Program-made: the position numbers and the translations under genes
The notes under the pieces: model-generated
Told to the model about the DNA's origin: nothing
Databases searched by the model: none
The model's input: only the letters and a program-made list of their open reading frames with translations
Source: Felis catus
Lineage: Eukaryota
Length of the DNA: 64,000 bases
Assembly (NCBI RefSeq): GCF_018350175.1
Contig: NC_058368.1
Coordinates: forward strand, 88,600,001-88,664,000
Direction of reading: 5' to 3'
Shown here: piece by piece, positions 7,225 to 64,000 of the stretch
Position numbering within the stretch: position 1 is the first letter of the stretch
Layout of the letters: each line of letters opens with the position of its first letter

Positions 7225-7437
7225 GTGACCCCAGATGACCCTCGTGAAGCCAAAGATACACCCCAGTAATGCACAGAACATTGAGAAATGATAAATCACT
7301 GTCTTTTTAAGTCCCTAGGTTTGGCGGTACTGAGTGACCCCAGATGACCCTCGTGAAGCCAAAGATACACCCCAGTAATGCACAGAACATTGAGAAATGA
7401 TAAATCACTGTCTTTTTAAGTCCCTAGGTTTGGCGGT
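7225..7437. repeat. Perfect 104-bp tandem duplication with a 5-bp spacer, in a MaLR-like LTR fragment
   Basis: 7225-7328 equals 7334-7437, separated by ACTGA. Confidence 0.93.
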
Positions 7438-30429: not shown

Positions 30430-33400
30430 CATTTTTCTTAATATGAAATTTATTGTCAAATTGGTTTCCATACAACACCCAGTGGTCCTCCTAAGAGGTG
30501 ACCTCCTCAATTCCCATTATCCACCCTCCCTCCTACTCTCCTTCAACCCTCAGTTTACTCTAAGTTTTGAAGAGTCAGTCTCTTTTGGCTTGACTCTCTC
30601 CCTCCCTAACTTTTTATTTCCTTCCCCTCCCCCATGGTCTTCTGTTAAGTTTCTCAGGATCCACTTAGGAGTGGAAACATATGGTATCTGTCTTTCTCTG
30701 TATGACTTATTTCACTTAGCATAACACTCTCCAGTTCCATCCACGTTGCTACAAAAGGCCATATTTCATTCTTTCTCATTGCCGTGTAGTATGCCATTGT
30801 GTATATAAACCACAATTTCTTTATCCATTCATCAGGTGATGGACACTTAGGCTCTGTCCATAATTTGGCTATTGTTGAAAGTGCTGCTATAAACATTGGG
30901 GTACAAGTGCCCCTATGCATTGAGGAACCTCCACACTGTTTTCCAGAGTGGCTGCACCAGTTTGCATTCCCGCCAACAGTGCAAGAGGGTTCCCGTTTCT
31001 CCACATCCTCTCCAGCATCTATAGTCTCCTGATTTGTTCATTTTAGCCACTCTGACTGGCATGAGGTGACATCTGAGTGTGGTTTTGATTTGTATTTCCC
31101 TGCTGAGGAGTGACGTTGAGCATCTTTTCATGAGCCTGTTGGTCATCTGGATGTCTTCTTTAGGGAAGTGTCTATTCATGTTTTCTGCCCATTTCTTCAC
31201 TGGGTTATTTGTTTTTCAGTGTGGAGTTTGGTAAGTTCTTCATAGATTTTGGATACTAGCCCTTTGCCCGATATGTCATTTGCAAATATTTTTTTCCCAT
31301 TCCCTTGGTTGCCTTTTAGTTTTGTTGGTTGTTTCCTTTGCAGTGCAGAAGCTTTTTATCTTCATGAGGTCCCCGTAGTTCACTTTTGCTTTTAATTCCC
31401 TTGGCTTTGGAGAGGTGTTGAGTAAGAAATTGCTGTGACTGAGGTCAGTGAGGTTTTTTTTTCCTGCTTTCTCCTCTAGGGTTTTGATGGTTTCCTGTCT
31501 CACATTCAGGTCCTTTTTCAATTTTGAGCTTATTTTTGTGTATGGTGTAAGAAAGTGGTCTAGTTTCATTCTTCTGCACGTTGTTGTCCAGTTCTCCTAG
31601 CACCATTTGCTAAAGAGACTGTCTTTTTGCCATTGGATGTTCTTTCCTGCTTTGTCAAAGATTAGTCGGCCATACTTTTGTGGGTCCAATTCTGGAGTCT
31701 CTATTCTATTCCATTGGTCTATGTGTCTGTTTTTGTGCCAATACCATGCTGCCTTGATGATGACAGCTTTGCAGTTGAAGCTAAAGTCTGGGATTGTGAT
31801 ACCTCCCACTTTGCACTTCTTCTTCAATATTACTTTGGTTATTCAGGGTCTTTGTGGTTCCTTACAAATTGTAGGATTCCTTGTTCTAGCTTCGAGAAGA
31901 ATGCAGGTGCAATTTTGATTGGGATTGCATGGAATGTGTAGATAGCTTTGGGTAGTCTTGACAGTTTAACAATATTTATGCTACCAATCCATGAGCCCTG
32001 AGTGTTTTTCCACTTTTTTGTATCTTCTTCAATTTCCTTCATAAGCTCTCTATAGTTTTCATTGTACAGATCTTTTACATCTTTGGGTAAGTATATTCCT
32101 AGGTATTTTATGATTCTTGGTGTAATTGTGAATGGGATCAGTTTCTTTATTTGTCTGTATGTTTCTTCATTATTAGTGTATAAGAATGCAACTGATTTCT
32201 GTACATTAATTTTGTATTCTGCAACTTTGCTGAATTCATGTATCTGTTCTAGCAGAATTTGGTGGAGTCTTTCGGGTTTTCCATGTATAATATCATGTCA
32301 TCTGCAAAAAGTGAAAGCTTGACTTCATCTTTGCCAATTTGGATGCCTTTGATTTCCTTTTGTTGTCTGATTGCACTCTTCCAGCACTCTGTTAAACAAT
32401 AGCAGTGAGAGTGGACATCGCTGTTGTGCTCCTTATCTCCGGGGAAAGCTCTCAGTTTTTCCCCATTGAGGATGATATTGGCTGTGGTCTTTTCATGAAT
32501 GGCTTTGCTGATGTTTAAGTACGTTCCTTCTATCCCGACTTTTCGAGGATTTTTATTAAGAAAGAATACTGCATTTTGTCAAATGCTTTTCTGCATCAAT
32601 TGACAGAATCGTATGGTTATTTTCTTTTTTTTATTATTAATGTAATGTATCAAATTGATTAATTTGTGAATGTTGAACCAGCCCTTCAGCCCAGGAATGA
32701 ATCCCACTTGATCATGTTGAATAATCCTTTTTATATGCTGTTGAATTCGATTTGCTAGTATCGTGTTGAGAATTTTTGCATCCATATACATCAGGGATAT
32801 TGGCCTGTAGTTCTATGTAGTTCTATTTTTTTGCTGAATCTCTGTCTGGTTTAGGAATCAAAGTAATGCTGACATCATAGGATGAGTCTGGAAGTTTTCC
32901 TTCCTTTCAATTTTTTGGAACAGTTTGAGAAGGATAGATATTATCTTTGCTGTAAATGTCTGGTAGAATTCCCTGGGGAAGACATCTGGTCCTGGACTCT
33001 TATTTGTTGGGAGATTTTTAAAAATATTTTTAATGTTTATTTATTTTTGAGAGAGAGAGATATAGCATGAGTGGAGGAGGGACAGAGAGAGAGGGAGACA
33101 CATAATCCGAAGCAGGCTCTAGGCTCTGAGCTGTCAGCACAGAGCCTGACGTGGGGCTTCAACTCACAGACCGCAAGATCATGACCTGAGCCGGAGTTGG
33201 ACACTTAACCGACTGAGCAACCCAGGCACCACAATTGGGAGATTTTTGATAAACTGATTAAATTTCTTCACTGGTTATGGGTGTGTTCAAGTTTTCTATA
33301 TCTTCCTGTTTGAGTTTTGGAAGAGGGTGGGTGATTAGGAATTTGTCCATTTCTTCCAGGTTGTCCAGTTTGTTGGCATATAATTTTTCACAGTATTCCC

Positions 33401-36400
33401 TGATAATTGCTTGTATTTCTGAGGGATTGGTTGTAATAATTCAATTTTCATTTATGATTTTATCTATTTGGGTCATCTCCCTTTTCTTTTTGAGAAGCCT
33501 AGCTAGAGGTTTATCAATTTTGTTTATTTTTTTTAACAAACTAAGTCTTGGTTTCATTGATCTGCTCTACAGTTTTTTAGATTCTATATTATTTATTTCT
33601 GCTCTGATATTTCTTATTTCTCTTCTTTTGCTGGGTTCGGGGTGTCTATGCTGTTCTGCTTCTATTTCCCTTAGGCGTGCTGTTAGATTTTGTATTTGGG
33701 ATTTTTCTTGATTCTTGAGGTAGGCCTGGAATGCAATGTATTTTTTTGTCCGGACTGCCTTCTCTGCATCCCAAAGCACTTGGATTGTTGTGTTTTCATT
33801 TTCATTAGTTTCCATATATTTTAAAATTTCTTCTCTAATTGCCTGGTTGACCCATTCATTCTTTAGTAGGGTTTTCTTTAACCTCCATGCTTTTGGAGGT
33901 TTTCCGGACTTTTTCCTGTGGTTGATTTCAAGTTTCATAGCATTGTTGTCTGAAAGTGTCCATGGTGTGATCTCAATTCTTTTAGTCTGATTAAGGGCTG
34001 TTTTGTGACCTGTCTTGGATCTATCTTGGGGAATGTGATCTATCTTGGAGAATGTTCCATGTGCACTCAAGAAGAAAGTATATTCTGTTGCTTTGGGATG
34101 CAGACTTCTAAATATATCTGTCAAGTCAATCTGATCCAATGTATCATTCAGGGACATTGTTTCTTTATTGATCCTGTGTCTAGATGATCCATCCATTGTT
34201 GTAAGTGGGGTATTAAAGTCCCCTGAAATTACCACATTCTTATCAATAAAGTTGCTTATGTTTGTGATTGATTGTTTTATGTATTTGGGGGCTCTTGTAT
34301 TTGGTGCATAGACATTTATAATTGTTAGCTCTTCCTGATGGATAGAGCCTATGATTATTATATAAGGCCCATCTTCATTTCTTGTTACAACCATTAATTT
34401 AAAGTCTAGTTTGTCTGATACAAGTATGGATACTCCAGCTTTCTTTTGACTTCCTGTAGCATGATAGATAGTTATCCATCCCCTCACTTTCAATCTGAAA
34501 GTGTCCCCAGGTCTGAAATGAGTGTCTTATGGATAGCAAATAGATGAGTCTTGTTTTTTATCCATTCTGATACCTTATGTCTTTTGATTGGAGCAGTCAT
34601 TCCATTTCAATTCAGTGTTATTATAGAAAGATAAGGGTTTAGAGTCATAGTGATGTCTGTAGGTTTTATGCTTGTAGTGATGTCTCTGGTACTTTGCATT
34701 CCTTGCAACATTTCACTCACAGAATCCCCCTTACAGTCTCCTGTAGGGCTGGTTCATTGTTGATGAATTACTTCAGTTTTTGTTTGGTAAACCTTTTCCT
34801 CTCCTTCTATTCTGAATGACAGACTTGAGGGATATGGGACTCTTGGCTGCATATTTCTTCTCTTCATCACATTGAAGATTTCCTGCCATTCCTTTCTGGC
34901 CTGCTAAGTTTCAGTAGATAGGTCTGCCACTACTCTTATAGGTCTACCTTTGTAAGTTAGAGCCTGTTTATCCCTAGCTGTTTTCAGAATTTTCTCTTTA
35001 TCCTTGTATTTTGCCAGTTTCTCTGTGATATATCATGCAGAAGATCGATTCAAGTTACCTCTTAAGGGAGTTCTCTGTGCCTCTTGGATTGCAATGCCTT
35101 TTTCCTTCTGGAGATCAGGGAAGTTCTCAGGTATGATTTGTTGAAGTACGCCTTCTGCCCCTTTCTCTCTCTTCTTCTTCTTCTTCTTCTTCTTCTTCTT
35201 CTTCTTCTTCTGGAATTCCTATGATATGGATATTGTTCTGTTGATTGCATCACTTAGTGCTCTATTTCTCCCCTCATACTCCTGGATTTTTTTATCTGTA
35301 TTTTTCTCAGCTTCCTCCTTTTCCATAATTATATCTTCTAATTCACCTATTCTCCCCTCTGCCTCTTCAATCCGTGCTATGGCCACATCCATTTTATTTT
35401 GGACCTCATTTATAGCATTGTGTAGCTCCTTATGACTATTTCTTAGTCCCTTGATCTCTGTAGCAATAGATTCTCTGCTGTCCTCTATGCTTTTTTCAAG
35501 CCCAGTGATTAATTTTATAATTATTATTCTAAATTATTATTCCGTTACATTGCTTAAATCGTTTTTGATCATTCATTAGCTGTCGCTACTTCCTGGAGTT
35601 TCTTTTGAGGAGAATTCTTCCATTTCATCATTTTGGGTAGTCCCTGAGGTGACTCCAAACTGCAGGCACTTCCCCTGTGCTGTGTGGAGTAACTTGTGTT
35701 GGTGGGAGGGGCCAAATCAGACCCGATGTCTGCGCCCAGCCCACCGCTGGGGCCACAGTGAGACTGGTGTGTACCTTATCTTCCCCTCTCCCAGGGGCAG
35801 GACTCACTGTGCAGTGGTGTGGCCCTTGTCTGGGCTACTTCCACACTGCCAGGCTTGTGGTGCTGCTTCGATGGGAACTGGCTAAGGGCGTATTAGAAGA
35901 GGTGGATCTGGAAGGTGCACAGGGGCTGGAGGGGCAGGCTTAGCTAGCTTTGATGTCAGTGGTCCCCTGCAGGTGGGGCCCTACAGCACCGTGAGAGAGG
36001 CAGGCCAGTCAGAGAGATGGATCCACAGAAGCACAACATTGGGCATTTGCAGGGTGCAAGCAAGTTCAGTGATGGGAACTGGTTCCCTTTGGAATTTAGG
36101 CTGGGGGATGGGAGAGGGAAACGGCCCTTGCCAGTGCCTTTGTTCCCCACTGACCTGAGCTCTGTCTTCCTGGGCTCAACAACTCTCCCTCCTGGCATCC
36201 TCTCACCCTCCTGCTCTCTGAGAGCAGAGCTGTTGACTTTTAACATTCCAGATGTTAAGTCCTGCTGGCTGTCAGAACTCACAGAGTCTGGCTCCTCCGC
36301 TTTTGCAAGCCAGAATTCGGGGGATCTGCCTTGCAGGGCAGGCTGCCCCTCCCCTGCCCTGTCTCCTTCCCGCCAATCCGTGTAGCATGCACCACCTCTC

Positions 36401-40999: not shown

Positions 41000-43119
41000 T
41001 GTGAAAGATGAATAATTAAGAACACTCGCCAAATAAAAGCCCAGAGAAATGTCATCTTTAATATGTCACACGATTCACAGACCCCCCCCAAAGCCAATGA
41101 TGACCTAGGTGTTAGGATTCCCAATGGATTTGAAAGGAGACATCATTAAAAAAAATGCTTAAGCAAGCAATTACAAATGTGTTTGAAAAAAATGAGAATA
41201 AGTCTCAGGAAAGGAAGAAAGGTGTAAAGAAGTACATAATCAACAATTACAACTGAAAAGAATAATGACTACAATTTTTAACCCCCCCCCACACACACAC
41301 AGCACACAAAGAATAAAACCTAATGTTTATGTCACAGGAATCTCAGAAAGAGAAAATACAAAAAAGCAGGGACTAAAAATATATTTCAAGAGAAAAATAA
41401 AAAAATTGTTTCAGGAAATCATGGCTGATTTTCCGAATTTGACAAAAGATGTGAACCTAATGATCTAAGAAAGTGAGTAAATACCAAAGAGTTGAAACCT
41501 CAAGAAATCCACCAGGAAACATGCTAGGACTACACTATGCTCCCACCCCATTCACATTTTTCCAGTTCTATCCCCATAAGCTTGCATGTGGGGCCTTGGA
41601 AGATAATGAGGTTATGTTAGGTCACAAGTTTAGGACCCTCATCATGAGGTTAGCATGCTTACAAGGAGAGATGCCAGAGAGCTGGCACTCTCTCTCCATG
41701 CACACATACAGAGAGAGGTCATGTGAGCACAAAGCCAGAAGGTGACCATCTGCAAGCCAAGAAGATGAATCTTCCCAGAACGTGACCACACTGGTGCCCT
41801 TGTTGGATTTCTACCCTAGACAACTGTAAGAATGTGCATTATGGATTTTTAGCCATTGGCTTAAACTTAGTGCATTTTTACACATTGCAATAAAGCAAGA
41901 TTCAGAAACTAAAATACATGGTGAATGGGACTTTATCAAGATTAAAACATTTTGCTCTTTTAAAGAGCCTGTTTGTTAGCTAACTTAATATAACTTATTA
42001 TAATTATATGAATTATGTAAATAATAAATATATATATTTATTATTTGTAAATAATAAATATATATATTTATTATTAATTATATATTATTATATATTATAT
42101 AATATATGTTATATATATAATTAATATAATATATACTATATAATATATATAAAATTAATATAATCATGACAATATAATCATGATAATTATAATAATTATA
42201 TATAATTAATATAATCATGATAATTATAATAATTATTTAAATAATTATTATAATTATCATGATTATAATATAAATTATATTAAAAATAATGTAGGGGTGC
42301 CTGAGTGGCTCAGTCCATTAAGTGTCCGACTTTAACTCAGGTCAAGATCTCCTTGTTCATGAATTTGAGCCCTGCATCTGTCTCTGTGCTGACAGCTCAG
42401 AGCCTGGAGCCTGCTTCAGATTCTGTGTCTCCCCTCTCTCTGCCCCTCCCCCACTTGCACTCTGTCTCTCTCAAAAATAAATAAATAAACATTAAAAAAA
42501 TCCTGTTAATAGGATAAAAATACAAGCTATACACAAGGCGAACATGTTTGCAAACCACACATGTGACAAAGAACTTGTATCTACACAGTATAAAAAAATT
42601 CAGAATGCAACAAAAAATAAGAAGGAAAACATTTTCCAAATAGGAAATGGGCAAAAGACATGAAGAAACATTTCAGCAAAGATAACATACAGGTGGCATA
42701 AGCACATGAGAAAATGTTATACATCACTAGCCGTGAGGTAAATACATATGACAACTGACTGAGTAATCACTCCCCGCCTGTTAGAAGAGCTGGTTCAACT
42801 AAAACAGTGAAAAGATAAAACGTTGGAAAGAGGCGGCTCTCTCATGCATTACTGGTGGGAATGTAAATAGCACAGCCACTGTGGTAAGACAATTTGATAG
42901 CTGAACATAAACCCTACAACCTAGCGGTCAGGTTCCTGGACATTTATTTATCCCAGAGAATTTAAACTTAAAATCCCACAAAACACTGGGCACAAATGTT
43001 CACTGCGGGGTAATGTGTAATAGCCAAACCACTGGAAGCAAACAAAATGTCCCTCGAATGGATAAACAAAGCATTCCATCCACACTAGGGAGCCCTACAT
43101 AGTGATAAAGAACATATAT

Positions 43120-45068: not shown

Positions 45069-46515
45069 GCAGAGGCCAATTGGCAGGATCAACTCCCAAA
45101 GGCGCCTCCAGGCTGCAGCTGCACTCCTGGAGCGCCAACACTGCCAGGGGCTGAGGGCGATGCGATGCCCCCAGGCGCCCCTGAAAGACCATATGCAAGA
45201 AGCCTAAAGGTGGAGCAGCTGAGACCCACAGCCTCTCTCCAGGACCTGCCTCAGTCGTGGTGCTGCCAAGATAGGGATCCTCGTGACACGGTCCTATGTG
45301 GCCTTCCCCCTGCCCCTCTCTGTCTTCCCCTTCCATCCCCAGCCCCCACCCCCTCGTACTACTGGATTCTTCTTGCGCTCCTTTCTGGCTGAGGTCTGGA
45401 GGACTCAGGAGTGACCTTTATGGGTTTTACCCTGGTTCCCTGGAGGAGGAGGGCGCCGAGATCGAGTGGGGGGTTAGGTTCCAGTGGTGGGGAGAGGCAC
45501 AGGTACGGGGGGGGGGTGGTGCTCCCTGAGTGCCCTTGAGGTCTGACTGGGTTGGTGGCTGGAGGGTGGAGGTGCGAAGGCATGAATGCGTGGACCTGCG
45601 GTTGTGGGGAAATGTCAAGGCAGAGCCAGGGAAGTCACAGCTATGAGCAGGACGAAACATTCCTGCCTGTGAAAATGAAGCGCAGGGACCTCAGTGTGCA
45701 AGGAAACATTCCAGGGAGAGTCAGGGTAGTGGGCCTGAGTTGCTGGAGCCCAGCCAGGGAACTTGTTGAAGTGATGTAGAGCGGAAGCTGCAGGTGAACA
45801 CAAGCCTCCTGCCTCCCCCCTGCACACCCCCTGCCCTGCCCCGCCCCTGGTGGCAAAGTTGCACCCTCTGATGGGGTGGGGAGATCCCACGCTGCTTTTT
45901 GCTAAAGGCAGTCCTCTAACATGGGAGTTAATGGGACTATGGGGTGGGGAGTCTGAATTAGGGGTTGTGCAACTCCCTGTTGTGCTCTTCATTTCTGAAG
46001 GCAATTTACTTTCAATCAATGAACTCAAAGCAAATGGGCGATGAACACGTGGAGCTCCTTTCTTTTAGAGGGTGGTCCAGACTCTTTCCTACTTGGAGTT
46101 GTGTGCTGGAGAGGACTGGGGTTTTGGGATTCAGTACAAGATCAGTTTTGGAAAATGTGGGGTGGGAACGTCTTCTTCGTACTCTCCCAAGGAAGGTGGA
46201 TGGAAAAGCTCCTTGTTCCAGGCAGACTTGTCGGTTTTGCTCTTCATATCTGTGGGGCATGGTGCTTCATGTCTCTGTGGAGCGCCTCCTCTCTTGCATT
46301 CATTCCGTGTTTCAAGAGTTTCAGACCTTAGGAATCACATCTCCTCTGCGACTCACCAGGCAGCACAAGGGAGAAGTGACTCTGAGCCCACCGTGTCCCT
46401 AGAAACCAGTGCATGTGTACTTGAGCAACCAGTGCTTGCCTCTCAGCCTCCTTTTGAAATCAGCTCTTGAGCAAATGCTCTTTCATTCCATGGGTTCTAC
46501 CTCTCCCAGGTTGTT

Positions 46516-51490: not shown

Positions 51491-51529
<39 letters not shown>

Positions 51530-54500
51530 GAAATTTATTGACAAATTAGTTTCCATACAACACCCAGTGCTCATCCCAAAAGGTGCCCTCCTCAATACCC
51601 ATCACCCACCCTCTCCTCCCTCCCACCCCCCATCAACCCTCAGTTTGTTCTCAGTTTTTAAGAGTCTCTTATACTTTGGCTCTCTCCCACTCTAACCTGT
51701 TTTTTTTTTTCCTTCCCCTCCCCCATGGGTTCCTGTTAAATTCTCAGGGTCCACATAAGAGTGAAACCATATGGTATCTGTCTTTCTCTGTATGGCTTAT
51801 TTCACTTAGCATCACACTCTCCAGTTCCATCCACGTTGCTACAAAAGGCCATATTTCATTTTTTCTCATTGCCACGTAATATTCCATTGTGTATATAAAC
51901 CACAATTTCTTTATCCATTCATCAGTTGATGGACATTTAGGCTCTTTCCATAATTTGGCTATTGTTGAGAGTGCTGCTATGAACATTGGGGTACAAGTGG
52001 CCCTATGCATCAGTACTCCTGTATCCCTTGGATAAATTCCTAGCAGTGCTATTGCTGGGTCATAGGGTAGGTCTATTTTTAATTTTCTGAGGAACCTCCA
52101 CACTGCTTTCCAGAGCGGCTGCACCAATTTGCATTCCCACCAACAATGCAAGAGGGTTCCCGTTTCTCCACATCCTCTCCAGCATCTATAGTCTCCTGAT
52201 TTGTTCATTTTGGCCACTCTGACTGGCGTGAGGTGATACCTGAGTGTGGTTTTGATTTGTATTTCCCTGATAAGGAGCGACGCTGAACATCTTTTCATGT
52301 GCCTGTTGGCCATCCGGATGTCTTCTTTAGAGAAGTGTCTATTCATGTTTTCTGCCCATTTCTTCACTGGGTTATTTGTTTTTCGGGTGTGGAGTTTGGT
52401 GAGCTCTTTATAGATTTTGGATACTAGCCCTTTGTCCGATATGTCATTTGCGAATATCTTTTCCCATTCCGTTGGTTGCCTTTTAGTTTTGTTGGTTGTT
52501 TCCTTTGCTGTGCAGAAGCTTTTTATCTTCATAAGGTCCCAGTAATTCACTTTTGCTTTTAATTCCCTTGCCTTTGGGGATGTGTCGAGTAAGAGATTGC
52601 TACGGCTGAGGTCAGAGAGGTCTTTTCCTGCTTTCTCCTCTAAGGTTTTGATGGTTTCCTGTCTCACATTTAGGTCCTTTATCCATTTTGAGTTTATTTT
52701 TGTGAATGGTGTGAGAAAGTGGTCTAGTTTCAACCTTCTGCATGTTGCTGTCCAGTTCTCCCAGCACCATTTGTTAAAGAGGCTGTCTTTTTTCCATTGG
52801 ATGTTCTTTCCTGCTTTGTCAAAGATGAGTTGGCCATACGTTTGTGGGTCTAGTTCTGGGGTTTCTATTCTATTCCATTGGTCTATGTGTCTGTTTCTGT
52901 GCCAATACCATGCTGTCTTGATGATGACAGCTTTGTAGTAGAGGCTAAAGTCTGGGATTGTGATGCCTCCTGCTTTGGTCTTCTTCTTCAAAATTCCTTT
53001 GGCTATTCGGGGCCTTTTGTGGTTCCATATGAATTTTAGGATTGCTTGTTCTAGTTTCGAGAAGAATGCTGGTGCAATTTTGATTGGGATTGCATTGAAT
53101 GTGTAGATAGCTTTGGGTAGTATTGACATTTTGACAATATTTATTTTTCCAATCCATGAGCAGGGAATGTCTTTCCATTTCTTTAAATCTTCTTCAATTT
53201 CCTTCATAAGCTTTCTATAGTTTTCAGCATACAGATCCTTTACATCTTTGGTTAGATTTATTCCTAGGTATTTTATGCTTCTTGGTGCAATTGTGAATGG
53301 GATCAGTTTCTTTATTTGTCTTTCTGTTGCTTCATTGTTAGTGTATAAGAATGCAACTGATTTCTGTACATTGATTTTGTATCCTGCGACTTTGCTGAAT
53401 TCCTGTATCAGTTCTAGTAGACTTTTGGTGGAGTCTATCGGATTTTCCATGTATAATATCATGTCATCTGCAAAAAGGGAAAGCTTGACTTCGTCTTTGC
53501 CAATTTTGATGCCTTTGATTTCCTTTTGTTGTCTGATTGCTGATGCTAGAACTTCCAGCACTATGTTAAACAGCAGCGGTGAGAGTGGGCATCCTTGTCG
53601 TGTTCCTGATCTCAGGGAAAAAGCTCTCAGTTTTTCCCCGTTGAGGATGATGTTAGCTGTGGGCTTTTCATAGATGGCTTTTATGATCTTTAAGTATGTT
53701 CCTTCTATCCCGACTTTCTCAAGGGTTTTTATTAAGAAAGGGTGCTGGATTTTGTCAAAGGCCTTTTCTGCATCGATTGACAGGATCATATGGTTCTTCT
53801 CTTTTTTTTTGTTAATGTGATGTATCACGTTGATTGATTTGCGAATGTTGAACCAGCCCTGCATCCCAGGAATGAATCCCACTTGATCATGGTGAATAAT
53901 TCTTTTTATATGCCGTTGAATTCGATTTGCTAGTATCTTATTGAGAATTTTTGCATCCATATTCATCAGGGATATTGGCCTGTAGTTCTCTTTTTTTACT
54001 GGGTCTCTGTCAGGTTTAGGAATCAAAGTAATACTGGCTTCATAGAATGAGTCTGGAAGTTTTCCTTCCCTTTCTATTTCTTGGAATAGCTTGAGAAGGA
54101 TAGGTATTATCTCTGCTTTAAACGTCTGGTAGAACTCCCCTGGGAAGCCATCTGGTCCTGGACTCTTATTTGTTGGGAGATTTTTGATAACCGATTCAAT
54201 TTCTTCACTGGTTATGGGTCTGTTCAAGCTTTCTATTTCCTCCTGATTGAGTTTTGGAAGAGTGTGGGTGTTCAGGAATTTGTCCATTTCTTCCAGGTTG
54301 TCCAGTTTGTTGGCATATAATTTTTCATAGTATTCCCTGATAATTGTTTGTATCTCTGAGGGATTGGTTGTAATAATTCCATTTTCATTCATGATTTTAT
54401 CTATTTGGGTCATCTCCCTTTTCTTTTTGAGAAGCCTGGCTAGAGGTTTGTCAATTTTGTTTATTTTTTCAAAAAACCAACTCTTGGTTTCGTTGATCTG

Positions 54501-55080
54501 CTCTACAGTTTTTTTAGATTCTATATTGTTTATTTCTGCTCTGATCTTTATTATTTCTCTTCTTCTGCTGGGTTTAGGCTGCCTTTGCTGTTCTGCTTCT
54601 AGTTCCTTCAGGTGTGCTGTTAGATTTTGTATTTGGGATTTTTCTTGTTTCTTGAGATAGGCCTGGATTGCAATGTATTTTCCTCTCAGGACTGCCTTCG
54701 CTGCGTCCCAAAGCGTTTGGATTGTTGTATTTTCATTTTCGTTTGTTTCCATATATTTTTTAATTTCTTCTCTAATTGCCTGGTTGACCCACTCATTCGT
54801 TAGTAGGGTGTTCTTTAACCTCCATGCCTTTGGAGGTTTTCCAGACTTTTTCCTGTGGTTGATTTCAAGCTTCATAGCATTGTGGTCTGAAAGTATGCAT
54901 GGTATAATTTCAATTCTTGTAAACTTATGAAGGGCTGTTTTGTGACCCAGTATGTGATCTATCTTGGAGAATGTTCCATGTGCACTCGAGAAGAAAGTAT
55001 ATTCTGTTGCTTTGGGATGCAGCGTTCTAAATATATCTGTCAAGTCCATCTGATCCAATGTCTCATTCAGGGCCCTTGTT
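51491..55080 (-). mobile_element. Very young 5'-truncated L1
   Basis: Pure poly-T at 51491-51524; perfect 16-bp TSD aaaatgaaacattttc at 51475-51490 and 55081-55096; uninterrupted ORF2. Confidence 0.97.
51744..55080 (-). CDS. L1 ORF2p, N-terminally truncated within the endonuclease; RT and C-terminal domain open
   Basis: 1104-aa ORF (51744-55058) with [32 protein letters not shown] and a Cys-rich C-terminus; no internal stops. Confidence 0.9.
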
Positions 55081-55566: not shown

Positions 55567-57554
55567 TGCAAAACAATATGTAAGGACAGTAAATATCTCT
55601 ATACAAACCACAAAAATTACAAAGAACGCAATGACAGGATCAGGGCATCCTTTGGGGCTGCAGCCAACATGCGCCACTGCTCGGGAGCCGAGGCTGGTTG
55701 CTCAGCTGCAGCAGGTGGTTGCTCCAGCCCTTCCGTGACCCCGCCAGCTGGGGCTGGAGGCTGCTCAGAGTCTGGGTTGGGTCCACCAAAGGGGCAGGTG
55801 TCTCTTCCAGCTCCTGACAGTGAATCAGAGCTGGGACTACCACCTGTACTCTTGGTGACTCTGCAGGGAGGGTCACCAATTCTAATTGCTGAGCTCCAGG
55901 ATGAGTGGTGGCTGCAGGCAGCCTGGGCTGCGAAGCTGCAGTGGGCACCACAGAGATAGCGGGGGCTAGCTCCTGAGGGACGTCTGGATCTTGCTCTGGA
56001 GCTGGTGCCATAGCTTCAAGAATACAAAGTGTCATCACCGTGATTGCCATTCCATGGCCTTTCCTAATAAAGGAAACCTCTTCCGCAGACATTGTCATCT
56101 GAGTCAAAGAACCCACCAGGAGGAAATCTCCCTGATGGCAGGCTAATGGAACAGTGATCTGAGACTACTCACAACTCCTAGCCCACCCGCAGTCTCAGGA
56201 AACGTGCTTTGTGTGGCATACCCTGTCCCATCCACATGCCCACATCTCCCACACAGAGTCCTCCTCACCCAGAGATTCTGGCTCATTGGGCTCATGGTTT
56301 CTCCGTGATGAGTAGAGAAGGCAGTCATGGCGCTGCAGCTCGGAGCCTGGCATGTGGACCCCTATATATGCCCGCAGCATCTGCAGGCTGATGAAATCTG
56401 GGGGCTGGAAAAAGTCCTCAGGGTAATGGTCCAGCCAGGTGCCCAGAATGGAGGAGATGGCCCTGGGGATACAAAAGTAGCCAGAACAATCAACATGGGG
56501 TGTTCCTCCTGCACTAATGTTTCAAGACAGGCCTGTGGGACCTAGCCTCTATGCCTCCTGCTCATGGATGTACAGAGGGTGGTTCTATACCGTGTCCACC
56601 TGTGATTTGGCAGTCCCACCTAAGAGAGTCCTGGTCACTGAAGAGGGACTGTGAAAATTCTATTTGACGGGAACCCCTTAACCAATGATGTGGTCATCTC
56701 TGTCCTTCTTGGGAAGCCAGACATACTCCTTGGTGTGTCCTCCTGCCAACCTCTCACTAGAATTCAACTCCGTGCATGAGTGGAGGGGTGGTGTCAGGAT
56801 GAGTCAGTGCCTTCACTGCATACACTAGTGCTCCATGAAAATCTGAACACATACGGGACAAAGGCACTCTGTCTCTTACCTGGGCTTGCTTGAACCCTCC
56901 TCACGTGACGACCTGTGCCTCTATGCTGCCTCATTCACTTAGTGCACATGTGGGTGTCCTCCCACTGACACTGGTCTCCCATAGGGTGGGTGATATGTGG
57001 TCCTTGAGCCCTCACTGTGTCTCCTGAACACTTGCTAAGCACACACTGTCGAAGTTCCACAAGGTGGTGAGCGTGATGCTCCCCAAAACCTTTATTCTGG
57101 GTCCCCTGATGGGGGTGGAGGCAAGCCTGTGAGTGGGAAGGGATGGGGTTGGACTCTCTAAAGGGCTGAATCTGTCCTCTATTGCCCTCTGCTGTCTCAT
57201 TGTGCCCACAGCTTATCCTCTAACCCACAGGACAAGACCCCTTTCCTTGCTTCCAGGGAGAAGCCCTCAGACCTTTGCCCTCTCACAGGACTCTCAGATG
57301 TGTGGGATGCTGGGTCCTGAAGCCCCTCCCACGCACAGTCTCAGCACTGCCCTCTTGGAGAATGAAGGCCCTCCAGCATGAGCTCAGCCTACTCACATTT
57401 TCTCCTGCTCCCGGGGTCCATCATCTTCCTCAGTCTCAGGAAGGAAGCAGCCATATCTGGAGGAGGCCAGAAGGGCATCATATCAGGTGTCCTGTGGATA
57501 CTACCTCTTGTCATATCCAGGGTCACTGACTGATGACTAGAATGGAGCTCTGGA

Positions 57555-57784
57555 GGGGCACCTGGGTGGCTCAGCCAGTTAAGCCTCCGACTTTGGCTCA
57601 GGTCATGATCTCGTGGTCCGTGAGTTCGAGCCCCGCGTCGGGCTCTGTGCTGACCGCTCAGAGCCTGGAGCCTGTTTCAGATTCTGTGTCTCCCTCTCTC
57701 TCTGACCCTCCCCAGTTCATGCTCTGTCTCTCTCTGTCTCAAAAATAAAAGTAAAATGTTAAAAAATTTAAAAAAAAAAGAAAA
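57555..57784 (+). mobile_element. Young feliform SINE, present only in arm 1
   Basis: TSD agaatggagctctgga at 57539-57554 and 57785-57800; empty site in arm 2 near 62977-62992. Confidence 0.95.
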
Positions 57785-58765
57785 AGAATGGAGCTCTGGA
57801 GGGGAGGGTGCTGTCTGCTCTGTGCATTGGATCCCAGTCAGCTCCTACAGAAGTGCCTGCACCTAGTGGGGCTTCCTGTATGTTTGATGAACGATAGGGC
57901 CCCAATCAGCTTCATCACACATATTGGTGTGGGTCTGGGCCTCCTGCTCATCCTGGGCATCCTTGATTAGTTTGACCCAGGACTCAGACACACAGATAGA
58001 CCCTCACGTCTCCTTTTCAAATGGGAAAAGAGCCCAACTCAACACCTGGTGACAGTGAGGGATGAGGCAGAAACTTGATCATGGGGAAGAGGACAAAGCT
58101 CACCCAGCAGATACACAGCCCGTCCAGCAGACCTTTCCACAGGGCCAGGGTCACTTTCCAAGCAGTGCCCCCACTGAGTACCTGTAGTTATTCTGCTCTG
58201 ATCAGAGGAACAAACTGAGACTCAGGGAGGTTTGGTGACTTTCGTTAGACTCAAAGCTTTAAGGGGCTGAATCACACTAGGCTGTGAAGGGCAGGGCGCT
58301 CACCTCATAAGCAATAGTTCCAGGACCTGTTGGGTGGTAGCAAAAGCTCTGTACGTGCCCAAGAATGTGAAGAAGCAGGTGGGGTCTCTCCACAGGAAGG
58401 CGGGCACCAGGTGCTCCACTCACTGCTTCAGCAGGCCTGCATTGATGGTCCACTCCACACAGTTCTCATTCTCGTTCACGGGTGCGGCCTTTTTACCCCG
58501 AGATAGAACAGAGGAGGGACACAAAGTCAGACACAGCACCATGGACATCAGGAGGGTTGGGGTCCAGAATGCAGACCAAACCCGCCAGCCCTCAGTGACT
58601 TGTCGAAAGAGTGAGACCTGGTGCACACAGTAGGAAAAAGGATCTTGGCATTCACGTGAGAATTTGAGGTGGGGAATGGCTGAACACGTTAGGATCTGAG
58701 GTCAGATTGTTAGATGAGTATGGACAGCACCTCCCTGCATTAACAGCATTGTCTTTGTGATTTCT

Positions 58766-58978
58766 TTTTTTTTTTTTAACGTTTATTTATTTTTGAGACA
58801 GAGAGAGACAGAGCATGAATGGGGGAGGGTCAGAGAGAGGGAGACACAGAATCTGAAACAGGCTCCAGGCTCTGAGCTGTCAGCACAGAACCCGATGCGG
58901 GGCTTGAACTCACGGACCGCGAGATCATGACCTGAGCCGAAGTCGGCGGCTTAACCGACTGAGCCATCCAGGCGCCCC
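58766..58978 (-). mobile_element. Young feliform SINE, present only in arm 1
   Basis: TSD tgtctttgtgatttct at 58750-58765 and 58979-58994; empty site in arm 2 near 62012-62027. Confidence 0.95.
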
Positions 58979-61900
58979 TGTCTTTGTGATTTCTAACACC
59001 ACAGTCCATTCTAGGGATCAGAAGACAGGGACATTACCTGGCAGAGGTTGGATCAGGATAATAGGACATGTAGGATGTTCAGTGCAGCACTGTGACATGG
59101 CAACAGAAGGGAATCATGTAACAGTCCCGCATTTGTGAAGGGCTGAATGGGTGAGGTAAGTGGTCTCATTTCCAGAATGTTGTAAGGTAGTAAGGTCCTT
59201 GCTCCTGATCTGGAGGGCCCTAGGGACGTGTTGCTTGGCAACCAAAGTGCAGAGCAGTAGACATAATACAGTGAGTCCCATGTCCTTTGGGTAAAAATCT
59301 CCCTGCTCATCATGAACATGTGTCAGATGTGGGGAAGGTGTGGAAGGATGGTCAGGCGAACCGGGACACCTGGGAACAGTCATTGAGGAAACATGTACGA
59401 CAATGGCAATATATTCTAAACAGAATGGGACGTGAAATGGTTTCACACCTCTTTTCTGATATTCCTACAAATAAGTGGAGAGTGATGTTGCATCTGGCCA
59501 TGGCAGGGGCTGGGCCACGAGGGCATGTTTGGGGAACACATGGGGTTCCAGGTTCATCTGGGATCAGGAGTCTACGAGAGATACCAGGGGAGTAACTGTG
59601 TGTTTTCTGTGCCCTGGGATTCTTTGCACTGCCTCTGGGCTGTGCGTGTCGTGTTTCCCTGGTACCTTCACTCACCCTGAGCCAGGGGGGGCATCCTGCT
59701 AATGGCATGGGGCTTCCTCCTGTCCTTCAAGGAAGTAGAGCAGGGGCTCTCATCATTCACCTTCTCCTCCATCTCTGACGTGTGGCTCTGTAAAGACAGT
59801 GCCCAGCATGCAGGCAGGAGTCCTCAAAGCCATGTCTGCTTGCTTTCACTTGTCCTCAGACCCGTGTGAATTCATTGCAGATATACACACCGCAGTGTGC
59901 ACACATCTCCCTCAAGGAGGAGAAGCAACATGGTTTGAGGGCCTTGGATTAAACCTGTTATAGGTTAAAGGCACCTCAGAGATCCCTTTTGCCTCCTTCC
60001 CTGCATGACATCTGCATGGCCATGATGGGTCCACCAGGTCGTCCACTGCCATCCAACCTCCTCCAGTCCAGGACAGGAGCACCTCACGTGTTCCCCCTTT
60101 CCCTGAAACTGAAAACGGGGATGGGGGTGCCCAAGGATGGCTCAGAGCTGTGACCTGACCTGACCTGGCCTGGCCTGCTCTAGGCTGCTCTGTATTACCT
60201 TATGTCACCTCCTGGAAAACATCCTGAGGCATCGCCAGTGTGGGTGAAGGACACCTCTCCAACATCCGAATAATCCTGTGCACTGGGGTTTCTGGTATCC
60301 AGAGCCCTGGTAACTGGGAAAACAAGAGAACATCCCAAACTCTCTGTGTCTGTAGACAAGTGAGACTGGTATGGGACCTTACTAGTGCATGGGTGCCGGG
60401 TTACAGGAGTTCCACGTTCTCCTGGGGCCTATTGTGAGCAAAGTGATGTCACTGCCTAGGATCCACCTCCTGAGTCCGCTCCTGGGATAACACCTATGCA
60501 AATAGTCCTCTATTTGCTGACTGCTCACCCCTTTCTCCATGAAATGTCACATCGGTCCACAGTTACACCAACGCACCCCTCTCCACAGCCCCCTGGGAAG
60601 GTCTGGAGGCAGCCAGGGTCCCAGTTTTGAGACGTATCTGGGTTGAGACACAACTCTTCATTCTTACCTCTTTCTGGCTCTAGATAAGTGATTGTGTCTT
60701 TCAGGGATGGTCCCTGTCTCCTCTGCTCAAGGGACATAATTATAGGATGTACTTCCTTAGGATGTCCTCAGGCATACGTGGGATGATACCTGTGAAATTG
60801 GAGGAGTGGTGTCACATGTTGGATATTTATCCAACCACATTTACTTTGACTTCTCACCTCCTTTGGTTCTGCTGCTCCTCTGATCCCAAGTGTGTGTACA
60901 TGTGCGCGTACGTGTGTGCATGCAAGTGTGTGTGTGTACGTGTGTTTATCAGTGCTCATTTTCTGGAGTCCCAGAAGATAACATCCCCACCTAGGGAAGG
61001 ATGGCCAAAAATTTCTTAAGCGCTTAGGTTCTCTAATTTCTAAAGCAATCTTTACACGTGGGATTAGAGTTGTGGCCTAGGTGGTCAGAACACTCTTTTA
61101 CGTAGACTTTGCCAGTAGTGTGCCACAAGCCATTCCCTCCCTTTCCACTGGGTACAATGGAGACAGGGTGGCACTCAGTGGGCTGCCCTAGCCTTGGGTC
61201 CTCCTCACGGAAGAACATGCTGGAATGTCGTCTGTTACGCTCCTCTTCACCCTCACCCCCACACCACCCCCATGTCTGCACAGAGTTACAGTAACACAAC
61301 CTTTTCCCGAGCCCCCTCAGAAAACCTGGGTCAAGTCAAGGACCTCATTTTGAGGACATGGAGTTGGGTTCATGCTTTGTTCTGATTTTTGACCAGTCTG
61401 TGATTCTGAGCAAGGCACTGACCCTGCCAGGGTCTTCACTTTCTCCTCCCCTCAGTGGCTCCTTGAGATTCCCACATCCTGTAAACACATCCTTGTGTAA
61501 TTTCCTTCCTGGAGTGTGGTATGGACTTGGTGTTTGATTTCTGTTCCAAAGAAGATGGAAACCGTATCACGTCCAATTCTGTCTAGAATATTTTGGCATT
61601 GTGTTGTACATGTTTCTTCAATGACTGTTCCCAGGTGTCCTGGTTTGCCTGACCATCCTTCCACACCTTCTCTACATCTGACACATGTTCATGAGGAGCA
61701 GGGTGATTTTTACCCAAAGGACATGGGGCTCATGGTATTATGTCTACTGCTCTGCACTTTGGTTGCCAAGGAACACGTCCCTGGGGCCCCTCCAGATCAG
61801 GAGCAAGGGCCTTACCACCTAGACAACGTTCTGGAAATGAGACAAGGTACCTGACCCATTCAGCCCTTCACAAATGTGGGACTTTGACATGATTCCCTTC

Positions 61901-62279
61901 TGTTGCCATGTCACAGTGCTGCACTGAACATACTACATGTCCTACTACCCTGATGTAACCTCTGCCAGGAAATATCCCTGTCTTCTGGTCCCTAGAATGG
62001 ACTGTGGTGTTAGAAATCACAAAGACAATGCTGTTAATGCAGGGAGGTCTGTCCACACTCATCTAACAATCTGACCTCAGATCCTAACGTGTTCAGCCAT
62101 TCCCCACCTCAAATTCTCACGTGAATGCCAAGATCCTTTTTCCTACTGTGGGCACCCAGGTCTCACTCTTTCGACAAGTCACCGAAGGCTGGTGAGTTTG
62201 GTCTGCATTCTGGACCCCAACCCTCCCGATGTCCATGGTGCTGTGTCTGACTTTGTGTCCCTCCTCTGTTCTATCTCGG

Positions 62280-63133
62280 GGTAAAAAGGCCGCACCCGTG
62301 AACGAGAATGAGAACTGTGTGGAGTGGACCATCAATGCAGGCCTGCTGAAGCAGTGAGTGGAGCACCTGGTGCCCGCCTTCCTGTGGAGAGACCCCACCT
62401 GCTTCTTCACATTCTTGGGCACGTACAGAGCTTTTGCTACCACCCAACAGGTCCTGGAACTATTGCTTATGAGGTGAGCGCCCTGCCCTTCACAGCCTAG
62501 TGTGATTCAGCCCCTTAAAGCTTTGAGTCTAACGAAAGTCACCAAACCTCCCTGAGTCTCAGTTTGTTCCTCTGATCAGAGCAGAATAACTACAGGTACT
62601 CAGTGGGGGCACTGCTTGGAAAGTGACCCTGGCCCTGTGGAAAGGTCTGCTGGACGGGCTGTGTATCTGCTGGGTGAGCTTTGTCCTCTTCCCCATGATC
62701 AAGTTTCTGCCTCATCCCTCACTGTCACCAGGTGTTGAGTTGGGCTCTTTTCCCATTTGAAAAGGAGACGTGAGGGTCTATCTGTGTGTCTGAGTCCTGG
62801 GTCAAACTAATCAAGGATGCCCAGGATGAGCAGGAGGCCCAGACCCACACCAATATGTGTGATGAAGCTGATTGGGGCCCTATCGTTCATCAAACATACA
62901 GGAAGCCCCACTAGGTGCAGGCACTTCTGTAGGAGCTGACTGGGATCCAATGCACAGAGCAGACAGCACCCTCCTTTCCAGAGCTCCATTCTAGTCAGCA
63001 TTAAGTGACCCTGGATATGACAAGAGATAGTATCCACAGGACACCTGATATGATGCCCTTCTGGCCTCCTCCAAATATGGCTGCTTCCTTCCTGAGACTG
63101 AGGAGATGGCGGACCCCGGGAGCAGGAGAAAAT
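62280..63133 (+). pseudogene. RALGDS-like copy B (partial; lacks exons 1-2 and continues past the window end)
   Basis: Exon 62280-62473 is identical to copy A, with the same CGG acceptor and TGA at 62355. Exon 63075-63133 has an AA acceptor and a 1-bp deletion. Confidence 0.88.
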
Positions 63134-64000
63134 GTGAGTAGGCTTGAGCTCATGCTGGAGGGCCTTCCTTCTCCAAGAAGGCAGTGCTGAGACTGTGAGT
63201 GGGAGTGGCTGCACAACCCAGCATCCCACACATCTAAGAGTCCTGTGTGAGGGAAAAGTTCTGAGGGTTTCTCCTTGGAAGCAAGGAATGGGTTCCTGTA
63301 CTGTCTGGTATAGGATGGGCTGTGGGCACAGTGAGACAGCAGATGGTGACAGAGGACAGATTCAGCCCTTTAGACAGTCCAACCCCATCCCCTCCCACTC
63401 CCAAGCCTGCCTCCATCGCCATCATGGGACCCAGAATAAAGGCTTTGAGGAGCATCACGCTCACCACGTTGTGGAACTTCAACAGTGGGTGCTTAGCAAT
63501 TGTTCAGGAGATCCAGTGAGGGCTCAAAACCAGATATCTCCTACCCTGTGAAAGACCAATGTCAGTGGGAGGACACCCACATGTGCAATAAATGAATGAG
63601 GCAGCATAGAGGCACAGATCGTCACGTTTAAGGTATGAGGAGGGTCCAAGAAAGCCCAGGTAAGAGACAGAGTACCTTTGTCCCGTATGTGTTCAGATTT
63701 TCATGGAGCGCTAGCGTATGAAGGCACTTACTCATCCTGACACCACCCCTCCACTCATTCACGGAGTTGAATTCTAGTGGGAGGTAGACAGGGGGACACA
63801 CCAAGGAGTATGTCTGGGTTCCCCAAGAAGGACAGAGATGACCACATCATTGGTTAAGGGGTTCCCGTCAAATAGAATTTTGACAGTTCCTCTTCAGTGA
63901 CCAGGACTCTCTCAGGCGGGCCTGCCAAATCACAGGTGGAAAAGGTGTAGAACCACCCTCTGTACATCCATGAGCAGGAGGTATAGAGGCCGGGTTCCAC

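What the first reader, a model, noticed from the sequence alone, without database searches (positions are those of the whole stretch)
56535..64000. Palindrome-like inverted duplication with a ~747-bp identical core: a gene-conversion tract sharing inactivating mutations
Seen: the arms differ at many positions in their outer and inner parts (for example 57000-57400 against 63130-63520). By manual reading, 57803-58549 and 62228-62974 are exact reverse complements. This tract contains the REM exon with the same TGA and the same AG>GG acceptor in both copies, and it lies between two SINEs found only in arm 1. Inference: an old duplication underwent recent arm-to-arm conversion, with SINE heterologies limiting the tract, and the lesions may have been copied between paralogues.
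Basis: partly seen in the sequence, partly recalled or inferred. Interest (0 to 1): 0.7.

Follow-up and report, generated by a model that had tools for sequence, protein, structure and literature searches.

The report
Recent copy-paste between dead cat genes
Two old, broken copies of a cat gene sit back to back, and a 747-letter piece of one was recently copied over the other; this is real, but it is an ordinary, well-known process with no sign of a functional effect.

Summary
Confirmed: 57803-58549 and 62228-62974 are exact reverse complements (0 of 747 differ), while the flanking arm parts differ at 144 of 1691 columns. The arms are copies of a felid RALGDS-like (REM-only) gene in a cat. Assembly collapse is unlikely: independent contigs carry core letters at about twice single-copy depth in two runs. 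Best reading: recent non-crossover gene conversion (under about 1-2 Myr) between inverted paralogues that split about 20-40 Myr ago, probably from arm 1 to arm 2. The TGA and a Phe>Leu change are absent from lion and jaguar orthologue models and shared by both arms, so they were copied. The AG>GG acceptor is probably older than the cat lineage, and an in-frame AG lies 9 nt downstream. Both copies are also broken outside the tract. SINE-limiting fits only the left end (18 bp away, about 15% by chance); the right end stops 200 bp short. Mosaic exons in tiger and snow leopard, and one tract site that is not fixed among sampled cats, suggest repeated exchange. Known kind (compare SIGLEC11/16); low interest.

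The parts
56535..59444 (-). Arm 1 (outer end is the mirror of the window edge, true end not seen); part of RALGDS-like gene A
61558..64000 (+). Arm 2: paralogue that begins inside intron 2, with no exon 1-2 of its own in the window, and runs off the window
   Evidence: junction 61557/61558 spanned by a contig of run X7 with 1 difference (record 19)
57803..58549 (-). Identical core, arm-1 copy (likely donor)
62228..62974 (+). Identical core, arm-2 copy (likely recipient)
59445..61557 (.). Spacer; holds exons 1-2 and the 5' flank of gene A on the minus strand
57555..57784 (+). SINE-L (feline carnivore SINE; class name recalled), arm 1 only, target-site duplication 57539-57554 / 57785-57800
   Evidence: its 5' end seen as a loose end in run X1
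58766..58978 (-). SINE-R, arm 1 only, target-site duplication 58750-58765 / 58979-58994
60199..60333 (-). Gene A exon 1, with an in-frame stop near its end and one codon fewer than intact paralogues
59674..59790 (-). Gene A exon 2 (27 of 28 aa as lion and jaguar); one extra base near 59689 shifts the frame
   Evidence: window-type contigs of X1, X4 and X7 carry the extra base, paralogue contigs lack it
58303..58497 (-). REM (RasGEF_N) exon 3, arm 1; TGA 58422-58420, GG 58499-58498, in-frame AG 58490-58489
62280..62474 (+). REM exon 3, arm 2, identical; TGA 62355-62357
57396..57458 (-). Gene A exon 4, open, acceptor AG intact
63073..63134 (+). Arm-2 exon 4: acceptor AG>AA and a 1-bp deletion, both private to arm 2
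56267..56464 (-). Gene A exon 5 (just outside the visible arm pair); 64 of 64 aa as the cat model P0023
55576..56014 (-). Gene A exon 6, with two frame changes relative to intact paralogues; hydrophobic tail out of frame
62678..62678 (+). Core site: G in both arms (mirror 58099) but T in 10 of 10 reads of run X21, including a read with no other difference
58550..58765 (.). Right shoulder, 9 of 217 columns differ; the left shoulder 57364-57554 differs at 9 of 192. Possible older tracts, not supported by BIC

Best explanation
Arm 1 and arm 2 are paralogues of a felid RALGDS-like cluster that diverged about 9% (roughly 20-40 Myr). Arm 2 is the 3' part of a copy joined in inverted orientation about 1.2 kb upstream of gene A's first exon. 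Within the last 1-2 Myr, homologous repair of a break in one arm used the other arm, 3.7 kb away, as template and resolved without crossover, overwriting at least 747 bp around the REM exon. The donor was probably arm 1, so arm 1's stop codon and old GG acceptor were carried into an arm 2 that was already dead. Shown: identity pattern, two-copy depth, shared cat-derived residues, lesions outside the tract. Inferred: dates, direction, non-crossover resolution, origin of arm 2.
For: 0 of 747 versus 144 of 1691 columns; permutation maximum 229; three-segment BIC optimum. Depth of contigs carrying the window letter at core sites: X1 56.0 at 4 of 4 sites subtracted, against 24.1-29.0 at 3 single-copy sites; X7 32.4 at 2 of 2 sites against 14.3-16.2. 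From AAPV onward the core exon matches jaguar gene A at 60 of 62 and lion at 59 of 62 residues; both cat arms share stop-for-Arg and Leu-for-Phe (Arg in 11 of 13 other rows, Gln in 2). Exons 2, 3, 4, 5 and 6 of arm 1 all match the same lion and jaguar model, so the cis linkage is as in Panthera. The neighbouring tiger copy P0052 and the lynx exon P0058 are of another type with a 2-residue insertion, so a non-A copy would not look like the core unless overwritten. Age bounds use 0.86e-8 per generation at 3.8 years (abstract listing) and half that rate.
Against: No DNA of both arms from another felid was available, so arm 2's pre-conversion sequence and its orthologue are not shown, and direction is indirect. 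Contig depth is a summed, filtered quantity that the tool says is no copy number; contigs drop rare variants, so a few differences between arms in X1 or X7 cannot be excluded; X1 may be the source of the window. X4 showed no window-type contig at the tabulated core sites. Protein models cannot contain stops, and 6 gene-A models (P0007, P0023, P0027, P0029, P0031, P0032) begin at or after the end of exon 3, so the TGA is dated only as younger than the split from lion and jaguar. At about 91% identity the arms are just under the ~92% similarity proposed as needed for efficient conversion (PMC3966225, passages). No long reads were examined.
Confidence: 0.8

Rival explanations
1. Assembly or polishing collapse: one core copy overwrote the other in the consensus.
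For: Perfect identity over a long stretch; no long reads seen; X4 has no window-type contig at tabulated core sites.
Against: Core letters sit at about twice single-copy depth in X1 and in X7, a different study and organism label. Neighbouring stretches at 95-96% were kept distinct.
Confidence: 0.05
2. The tract is the conversion patch of a crossover that inverted the 3.7 kb between the cores (a flip-flop inversion).
For: Inverted repeats with an identical core are substrates for intrachromatid crossover (PMC3723533, passages). Lion P0008 and snow leopard P0033 join another REM type to gene A's exon 4, which could reflect rearrangement in those lineages.
Against: Exon 2 is linked to the same exons 4-6 as in lion and jaguar, so zero or an even number of flips. 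In Y palindrome P6, inversions were 3 against 56 conversions. Short contigs cannot phase across the core, so it was not tested in other cats.
Confidence: 0.07
3. Conversion as above but from arm 2 (pseudogene) into arm 1, killing or altering gene A.
For: Arm 2 is the more broken copy; pseudogene-to-gene conversion is known (SIGLEC16P to SIGLEC11).
Against: The core exon is 60 of 62 aa identical to jaguar gene A, in line with gene A's other exons. Gene A has a stop in exon 1, a frameshift in exon 2 and frame changes in exon 6, all outside the tract.
Confidence: 0.06
4. No conversion: the core stayed identical through constraint or low mutation since duplication.
For: None found.
Against: 552 of the 747 bp are intron; the exon carries a stop; the core has changed relative to Panthera in both arms alike; the chance of such a run is about 1e-13 even at 4.5% divergence.
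Confidence: 0.02

Closest known systems
SIGLEC11/SIGLEC16 conversion in primates (PMC5701461; passages read)
   Same: Old duplicates in opposite orientation a few kb apart; a recent local tract of high identity inside a ~88-93% similar region; repeated conversion in separate lineages; a nonfunctional copy involved.
   Different: There the tract is ~2 kb at 97-99% and changed a working gene; here 747 bp at 100%, both copies are broken, and arm 2 lacks its own first exons.
Non-allelic (interlocus) gene conversion in general (PMC3966225, PMC3924837; passages read)
   Same: Nearby paralogues, a tract of some hundred bases, transfer of a nonsense change; TE insertions and large indels are already described as disrupting conversion.
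   Different: Flank identity of about 91% is at the low edge (the review proposes ~92% and says most signatures are in >95% duplications).
Human Y palindromes such as P6 (PMC3723533; passages read)
   Same: Arm-to-arm conversion in an inverted repeat with a spacer; non-crossover outcome favoured.
   Different: Arms there exceed 99.9% identity throughout; here about 91% outside one patch, and the orthologue models lie on a ~239-Mb chromosome, i.e. an autosome by size (inference).
Felid 'ral guanine nucleotide dissociation stimulator-like' multicopy genes (NCBI models)
   Same: Same exon order; exons 4-6 of arm 1 equal the Felis catus model P0023; RasGEF_N is the only Pfam family found.
   Different: This copy is broken in exons 1, 2, 3 and 6; intact paralogues keep a C-terminal hydrophobic tail.

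Membership tests
Non-allelic gene conversion tract | Local run of identity far beyond flanking paralogue identity | tested here: met
   0 of 747 vs 144 of 1691; permutation maximum 229
Non-allelic gene conversion tract | Lineage-derived changes shared by both paralogues | tested here: met
   Stop-for-Arg and Leu-for-Phe in both arms, absent from lion and jaguar models; protein level only
Non-allelic gene conversion tract | Present in real DNA, not an assembly artefact | tested here: met
   About 2x depth in X1 and X7 contigs; indirect, no long reads
Non-allelic gene conversion tract | Non-reciprocal, no exchange of flanks | tested here: inconclusive
   Exon linkage as in lion and jaguar; an even number of flips not excluded
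Non-allelic gene conversion tract | Paralogues group within species in the tract and between species outside it (DNA tree of both arms) | not testable with these tools
   No genome held; 0 hits in two metagenome scans
Y/X-type palindrome | Arm identity above 99% along the arms | tested here: not met
   About 91% outside the core
SINE-bounded tract | Both tract ends at SINE heterologies | tested here: not met
   Left end 18 bp from SINE-L; right end 200 bp short of SINE-R's target site with 9 differences between; chance of one close end about 0.15
Repeat-mediated polymorphic inversion | Both orientations among haplotypes | not testable with these tools
   No piece listed spans the core with both flanks
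RALGDS-like (RasGEF family) gene | REM / RasGEF_N domain | tested here: met
   PF00618 in 4 of 5 proteins scanned, including the core exon
RALGDS-like (RasGEF family) gene | Catalytic RasGEF domain | tested here: not met
   No such family in 5 of 5 proteins scanned, including full-length P0028 and P0009

The most novel reading that the evidence does not exclude
The REM exon of this felid cluster is a recurrent exchange hotspot that works between copies only ~91% alike: independent patches in cat, tiger and snow leopard, with the latest cat tract still segregating. The new 747-bp perfect core could now seed an inversion polymorphism that swaps exons 1-2 between the two 3' halves.
Probability: 0.3. 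Interest if true: 0.4.

Novelty: new member of a known kind. Interest (0 to 1): 0.2.

Why it matters
It is a clean, datable instance of conversion between rather diverged neighbouring paralogues, and a caution that shared stop codons in paralogues need not date their duplication. It may mark a small structural-variant-prone spot in cats. No functional effect is indicated, since both copies are broken outside the tract. The side observation, an expanded felid family of REM-only RALGDS-like proteins with a hydrophobic tail, may be worth more than the tract; searches listed no paper on it.

Tried and rejected
No genome is held for this window, so arm 2 beyond 64000 and further copies could not be read. 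Two exact-pattern scans of metagenome contigs gave 0 hits. Exact look-up of 4 antisense or intronic ORFs of the arms found none of the 4. Three look-ups of earlier findings returned nothing. Layered older tracts (shoulders at 95-96%) were considered: models with 4-7 segments had worse BIC than 3. GC-biased conversion could not be tested; flank differences are 60 GC in arm 1 versus 48 in arm 2, unpolarised. Window-type alleles of outer arm 2 were not seen in the table rows for X1 and X7 and were at about half depth in X4; since the tool filters records and showed only 40 of 811 letter rows, I draw no copy-number conclusion. A first translation used a wrong frame and was redone. PMC11216403 and the Pantherinae preprint (passages) gave no data on this locus and no Felis-Panthera date. 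No supplements were read.
Full report
Observation. Self-comparison of the window shows an inverted pair: 56535-59444 against 61558-64000, with a 2113-bp spacer; the outer ends are cut by the window. 57803-58549 and 62228-62974 are exact reverse complements, 0 of 747 differing. With the two arm-1 SINEs removed, the alignment has 2438 columns and 144 difference events: 94 of 1021 to the left, 0 of 747 in the core, 50 of 670 to the right. The longest identical run in 20,000 permutations was 229, and BIC preferred these three segments over 1, 2 or 4-7. Both SINEs have perfect 16-bp target-site duplications and empty sites in arm 2.

What the locus is. Exon 5 of the arm-1 gene found 20 relatives among 25 candidates: 18 felid NCBI models, one sea lion model and one unnamed record. 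Exons 4, 5 and the first part of 6 equal the Felis catus model P0023 (20 of 20, 64 of 64, 79 of 79 aa), so the window is a domestic cat or a very close relative. The family carries RasGEF_N only (4 of 5 proteins scanned; no catalytic domain in any of the 5). Gene A runs on the minus strand from exon 1 (60333) to exon 6 (55576); exons 1-2 lie in the spacer. Arm 2 starts inside intron 2 and has no exon 1-2 in the window. The junction at 61557/61558 is spanned by an X7 contig with one difference, and two X4 contigs run on with other letters behind 61558. So arm 2 is the 3' part of a paralogue joined in inverted orientation; whether by inversion of a tandem copy or by inverted partial duplication is not resolved.

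Is the core real? Four of 24 listed runs were laid on 59445-64000 at 85% likeness. Subtracting paralogue contigs, those with the window letter have depth 56.0 at 4 of 4 core sites in X1, against 24.1-29.0 at 3 single-copy sites; in X7, 32.4 at 2 of 2 sites against 14.3-16.2. A collapse of a 9%-diverged copy predicts single depth. Caveats: the tool warns that such depth is no copy number, contigs drop rare variants, X1 may be the window's source, X4 showed no window-type contig at those sites, and only 40 of 811 letter rows were shown. No long reads were seen.

Evidence for conversion and its direction. From AAPV onward the core exon matches jaguar gene A at 60 of 62 and lion at 59 of 62 residues. 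The two differences from jaguar, stop for Arg and Leu for Phe, are in both cat arms; Arg stands in 11 of 13 other rows and Gln in 2. Arms that are 9% apart cannot have inherited these from their duplication (JC 0.090, about 20 Myr at 2.26e-9 per year, 40 Myr at half that; rate from the abstract listing of 10.1101/2021.04.06.438608; the Felis-Panthera split of roughly 11-15 Myr is recalled). Zero differences in 747 bp bound the last copying at 0.9-1.8 Myr (95%). Exons 2-6 of arm 1 all match one lion and one jaguar model, so the core is gene A's native exon, arm 1 is the likely donor, and no net inversion has occurred on this haplotype. This is inference from protein models; arm 2's orthologue was not identified.

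The lesions. The TGA was most likely copied; a CGA>TGA origin is inferred, as only proteins were seen, and 6 gene-A models start at or after the end of exon 3, so its date is loose. The GG acceptor looks older: ENA protein P0034 reads S-R-G-K-K through it with Arg intact and the lion-type exon end, whereas paralogues read Q-G or Q-D there; lion and jaguar models begin the exon at the in-frame AG 9 nt downstream. Neither lesion explains the loss of function. Gene A has a stop in exon 1, an extra base in exon 2 (carried by window-type contigs of X1, X4 and X7) and frame changes in exon 6; arm 2 has its own acceptor loss and 1-bp deletion in exon 4.

The SINE idea. The left end is 18 bp from SINE-L, with two mismatches between; the right end is 200 bp short of SINE-R's target site, with 9 differences between. 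Given a tract that spans neither SINE, one end this close has a chance of about 0.15. That TE insertions disrupt conversion is already stated in PMC3924837 (passages). Compatible on one side, not shown.

Signs of repeated exchange. Tiger P0052 and snow leopard P0033 join the LLEQ type of exon to gene A's WRDPTCFF segment, while lynx P0058 and lion P0008 have LLEQ with GRDHTYLC: a mosaic consistent with a separate conversion in Panthera. Within the core, site 62678 (mirror 58099) is G in both arms and in X1's double-depth contigs, but T in 10 of 10 reads of X21. Three of those 10 appear core-type (window letter at 62676) and one has no other difference; paralogue contigs also have T. So a derived letter not fixed among sampled cats sits in both arms, which points to very recent copying. 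This rests on about three reads.

Comparison with what is known. The closest case is SIGLEC11/SIGLEC16: head-to-head, about 9 kb apart, a 97-99% tract within 88-93% similarity, repeated in each primate lineage (PMC5701461, passages). Y palindromes differ by having arms above 99.9% (PMC3723533, passages). The ~91% background is just under the ~92% proposed for efficient conversion (PMC3966225, passages). Searches listed no paper on this cat locus or family; the library lacks most subscription papers.

Verdict. A real, recent, non-allelic gene-conversion tract between two dead inverted paralogues (confidence 0.8 for the full account, higher for conversion alone). New member of a known kind; interest 0.2.

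Noticed in passing
window 51491-55080 (minus): 5'-truncated L1 with a perfect 16-bp target-site duplication (51475, 55081) and an open 1115-aa ORF2 part with RVT_1: a young insertion just downstream of gene A.
   Followed up: partly
window 1-about 5000 (plus): Fragmented endogenous retrovirus remnant with Gag_p30, integrase and TLV_coat matches; observed only.
   Followed up: partly
proteins P0009, P0011, P0012, P0014, P0015, P0016, P0035: Felid multicopy RALGDS-like proteins with a REM domain, no catalytic domain found in the one scanned, and a C-terminal hydrophobic stretch (19-residue hydropathy about 2.9 in 7 of 7); lost by frameshift in gene A orthologues (1.2-1.35 in 3 of 3).
   Followed up: partly
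window 57555-57784 and 58766-58978: The two SINEs lie tail to tail in opposite orientation around exon 3 (93% complementary over 148 nt), so a transcript could pair them and loop out the exon.
   Followed up: no
window 7225-7437: Exact 109-bp tandem duplication, 2 copies.
   Followed up: no
window 59954-60052: Translation of this intron-1 stretch is 33 of 33 identical to the N-terminus of tiger model P0068, whose exons 2-3 are of another type: a further hint of mosaic copies.
   Followed up: no
window 62975-64000: Window-type alleles of outer arm 2 appear at about half depth in X4 and not in the shown rows of X1 and X7; could be structural polymorphism or filtering.
   Followed up: partly
window 45421-46310 (minus): Matches the C-terminal part of clouded leopard model P0010 (43-78%), so the duplicated unit probably extends about 10 kb past exon 6.
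   Followed up: no
window 30432-34161: Older, broken L1 copy 87-89% alike to the young one, interrupted by a SINE near 33027-33230.
   Followed up: no
window 41985-42290: AT-only low-complexity array next to a SINE.
   Followed up: no
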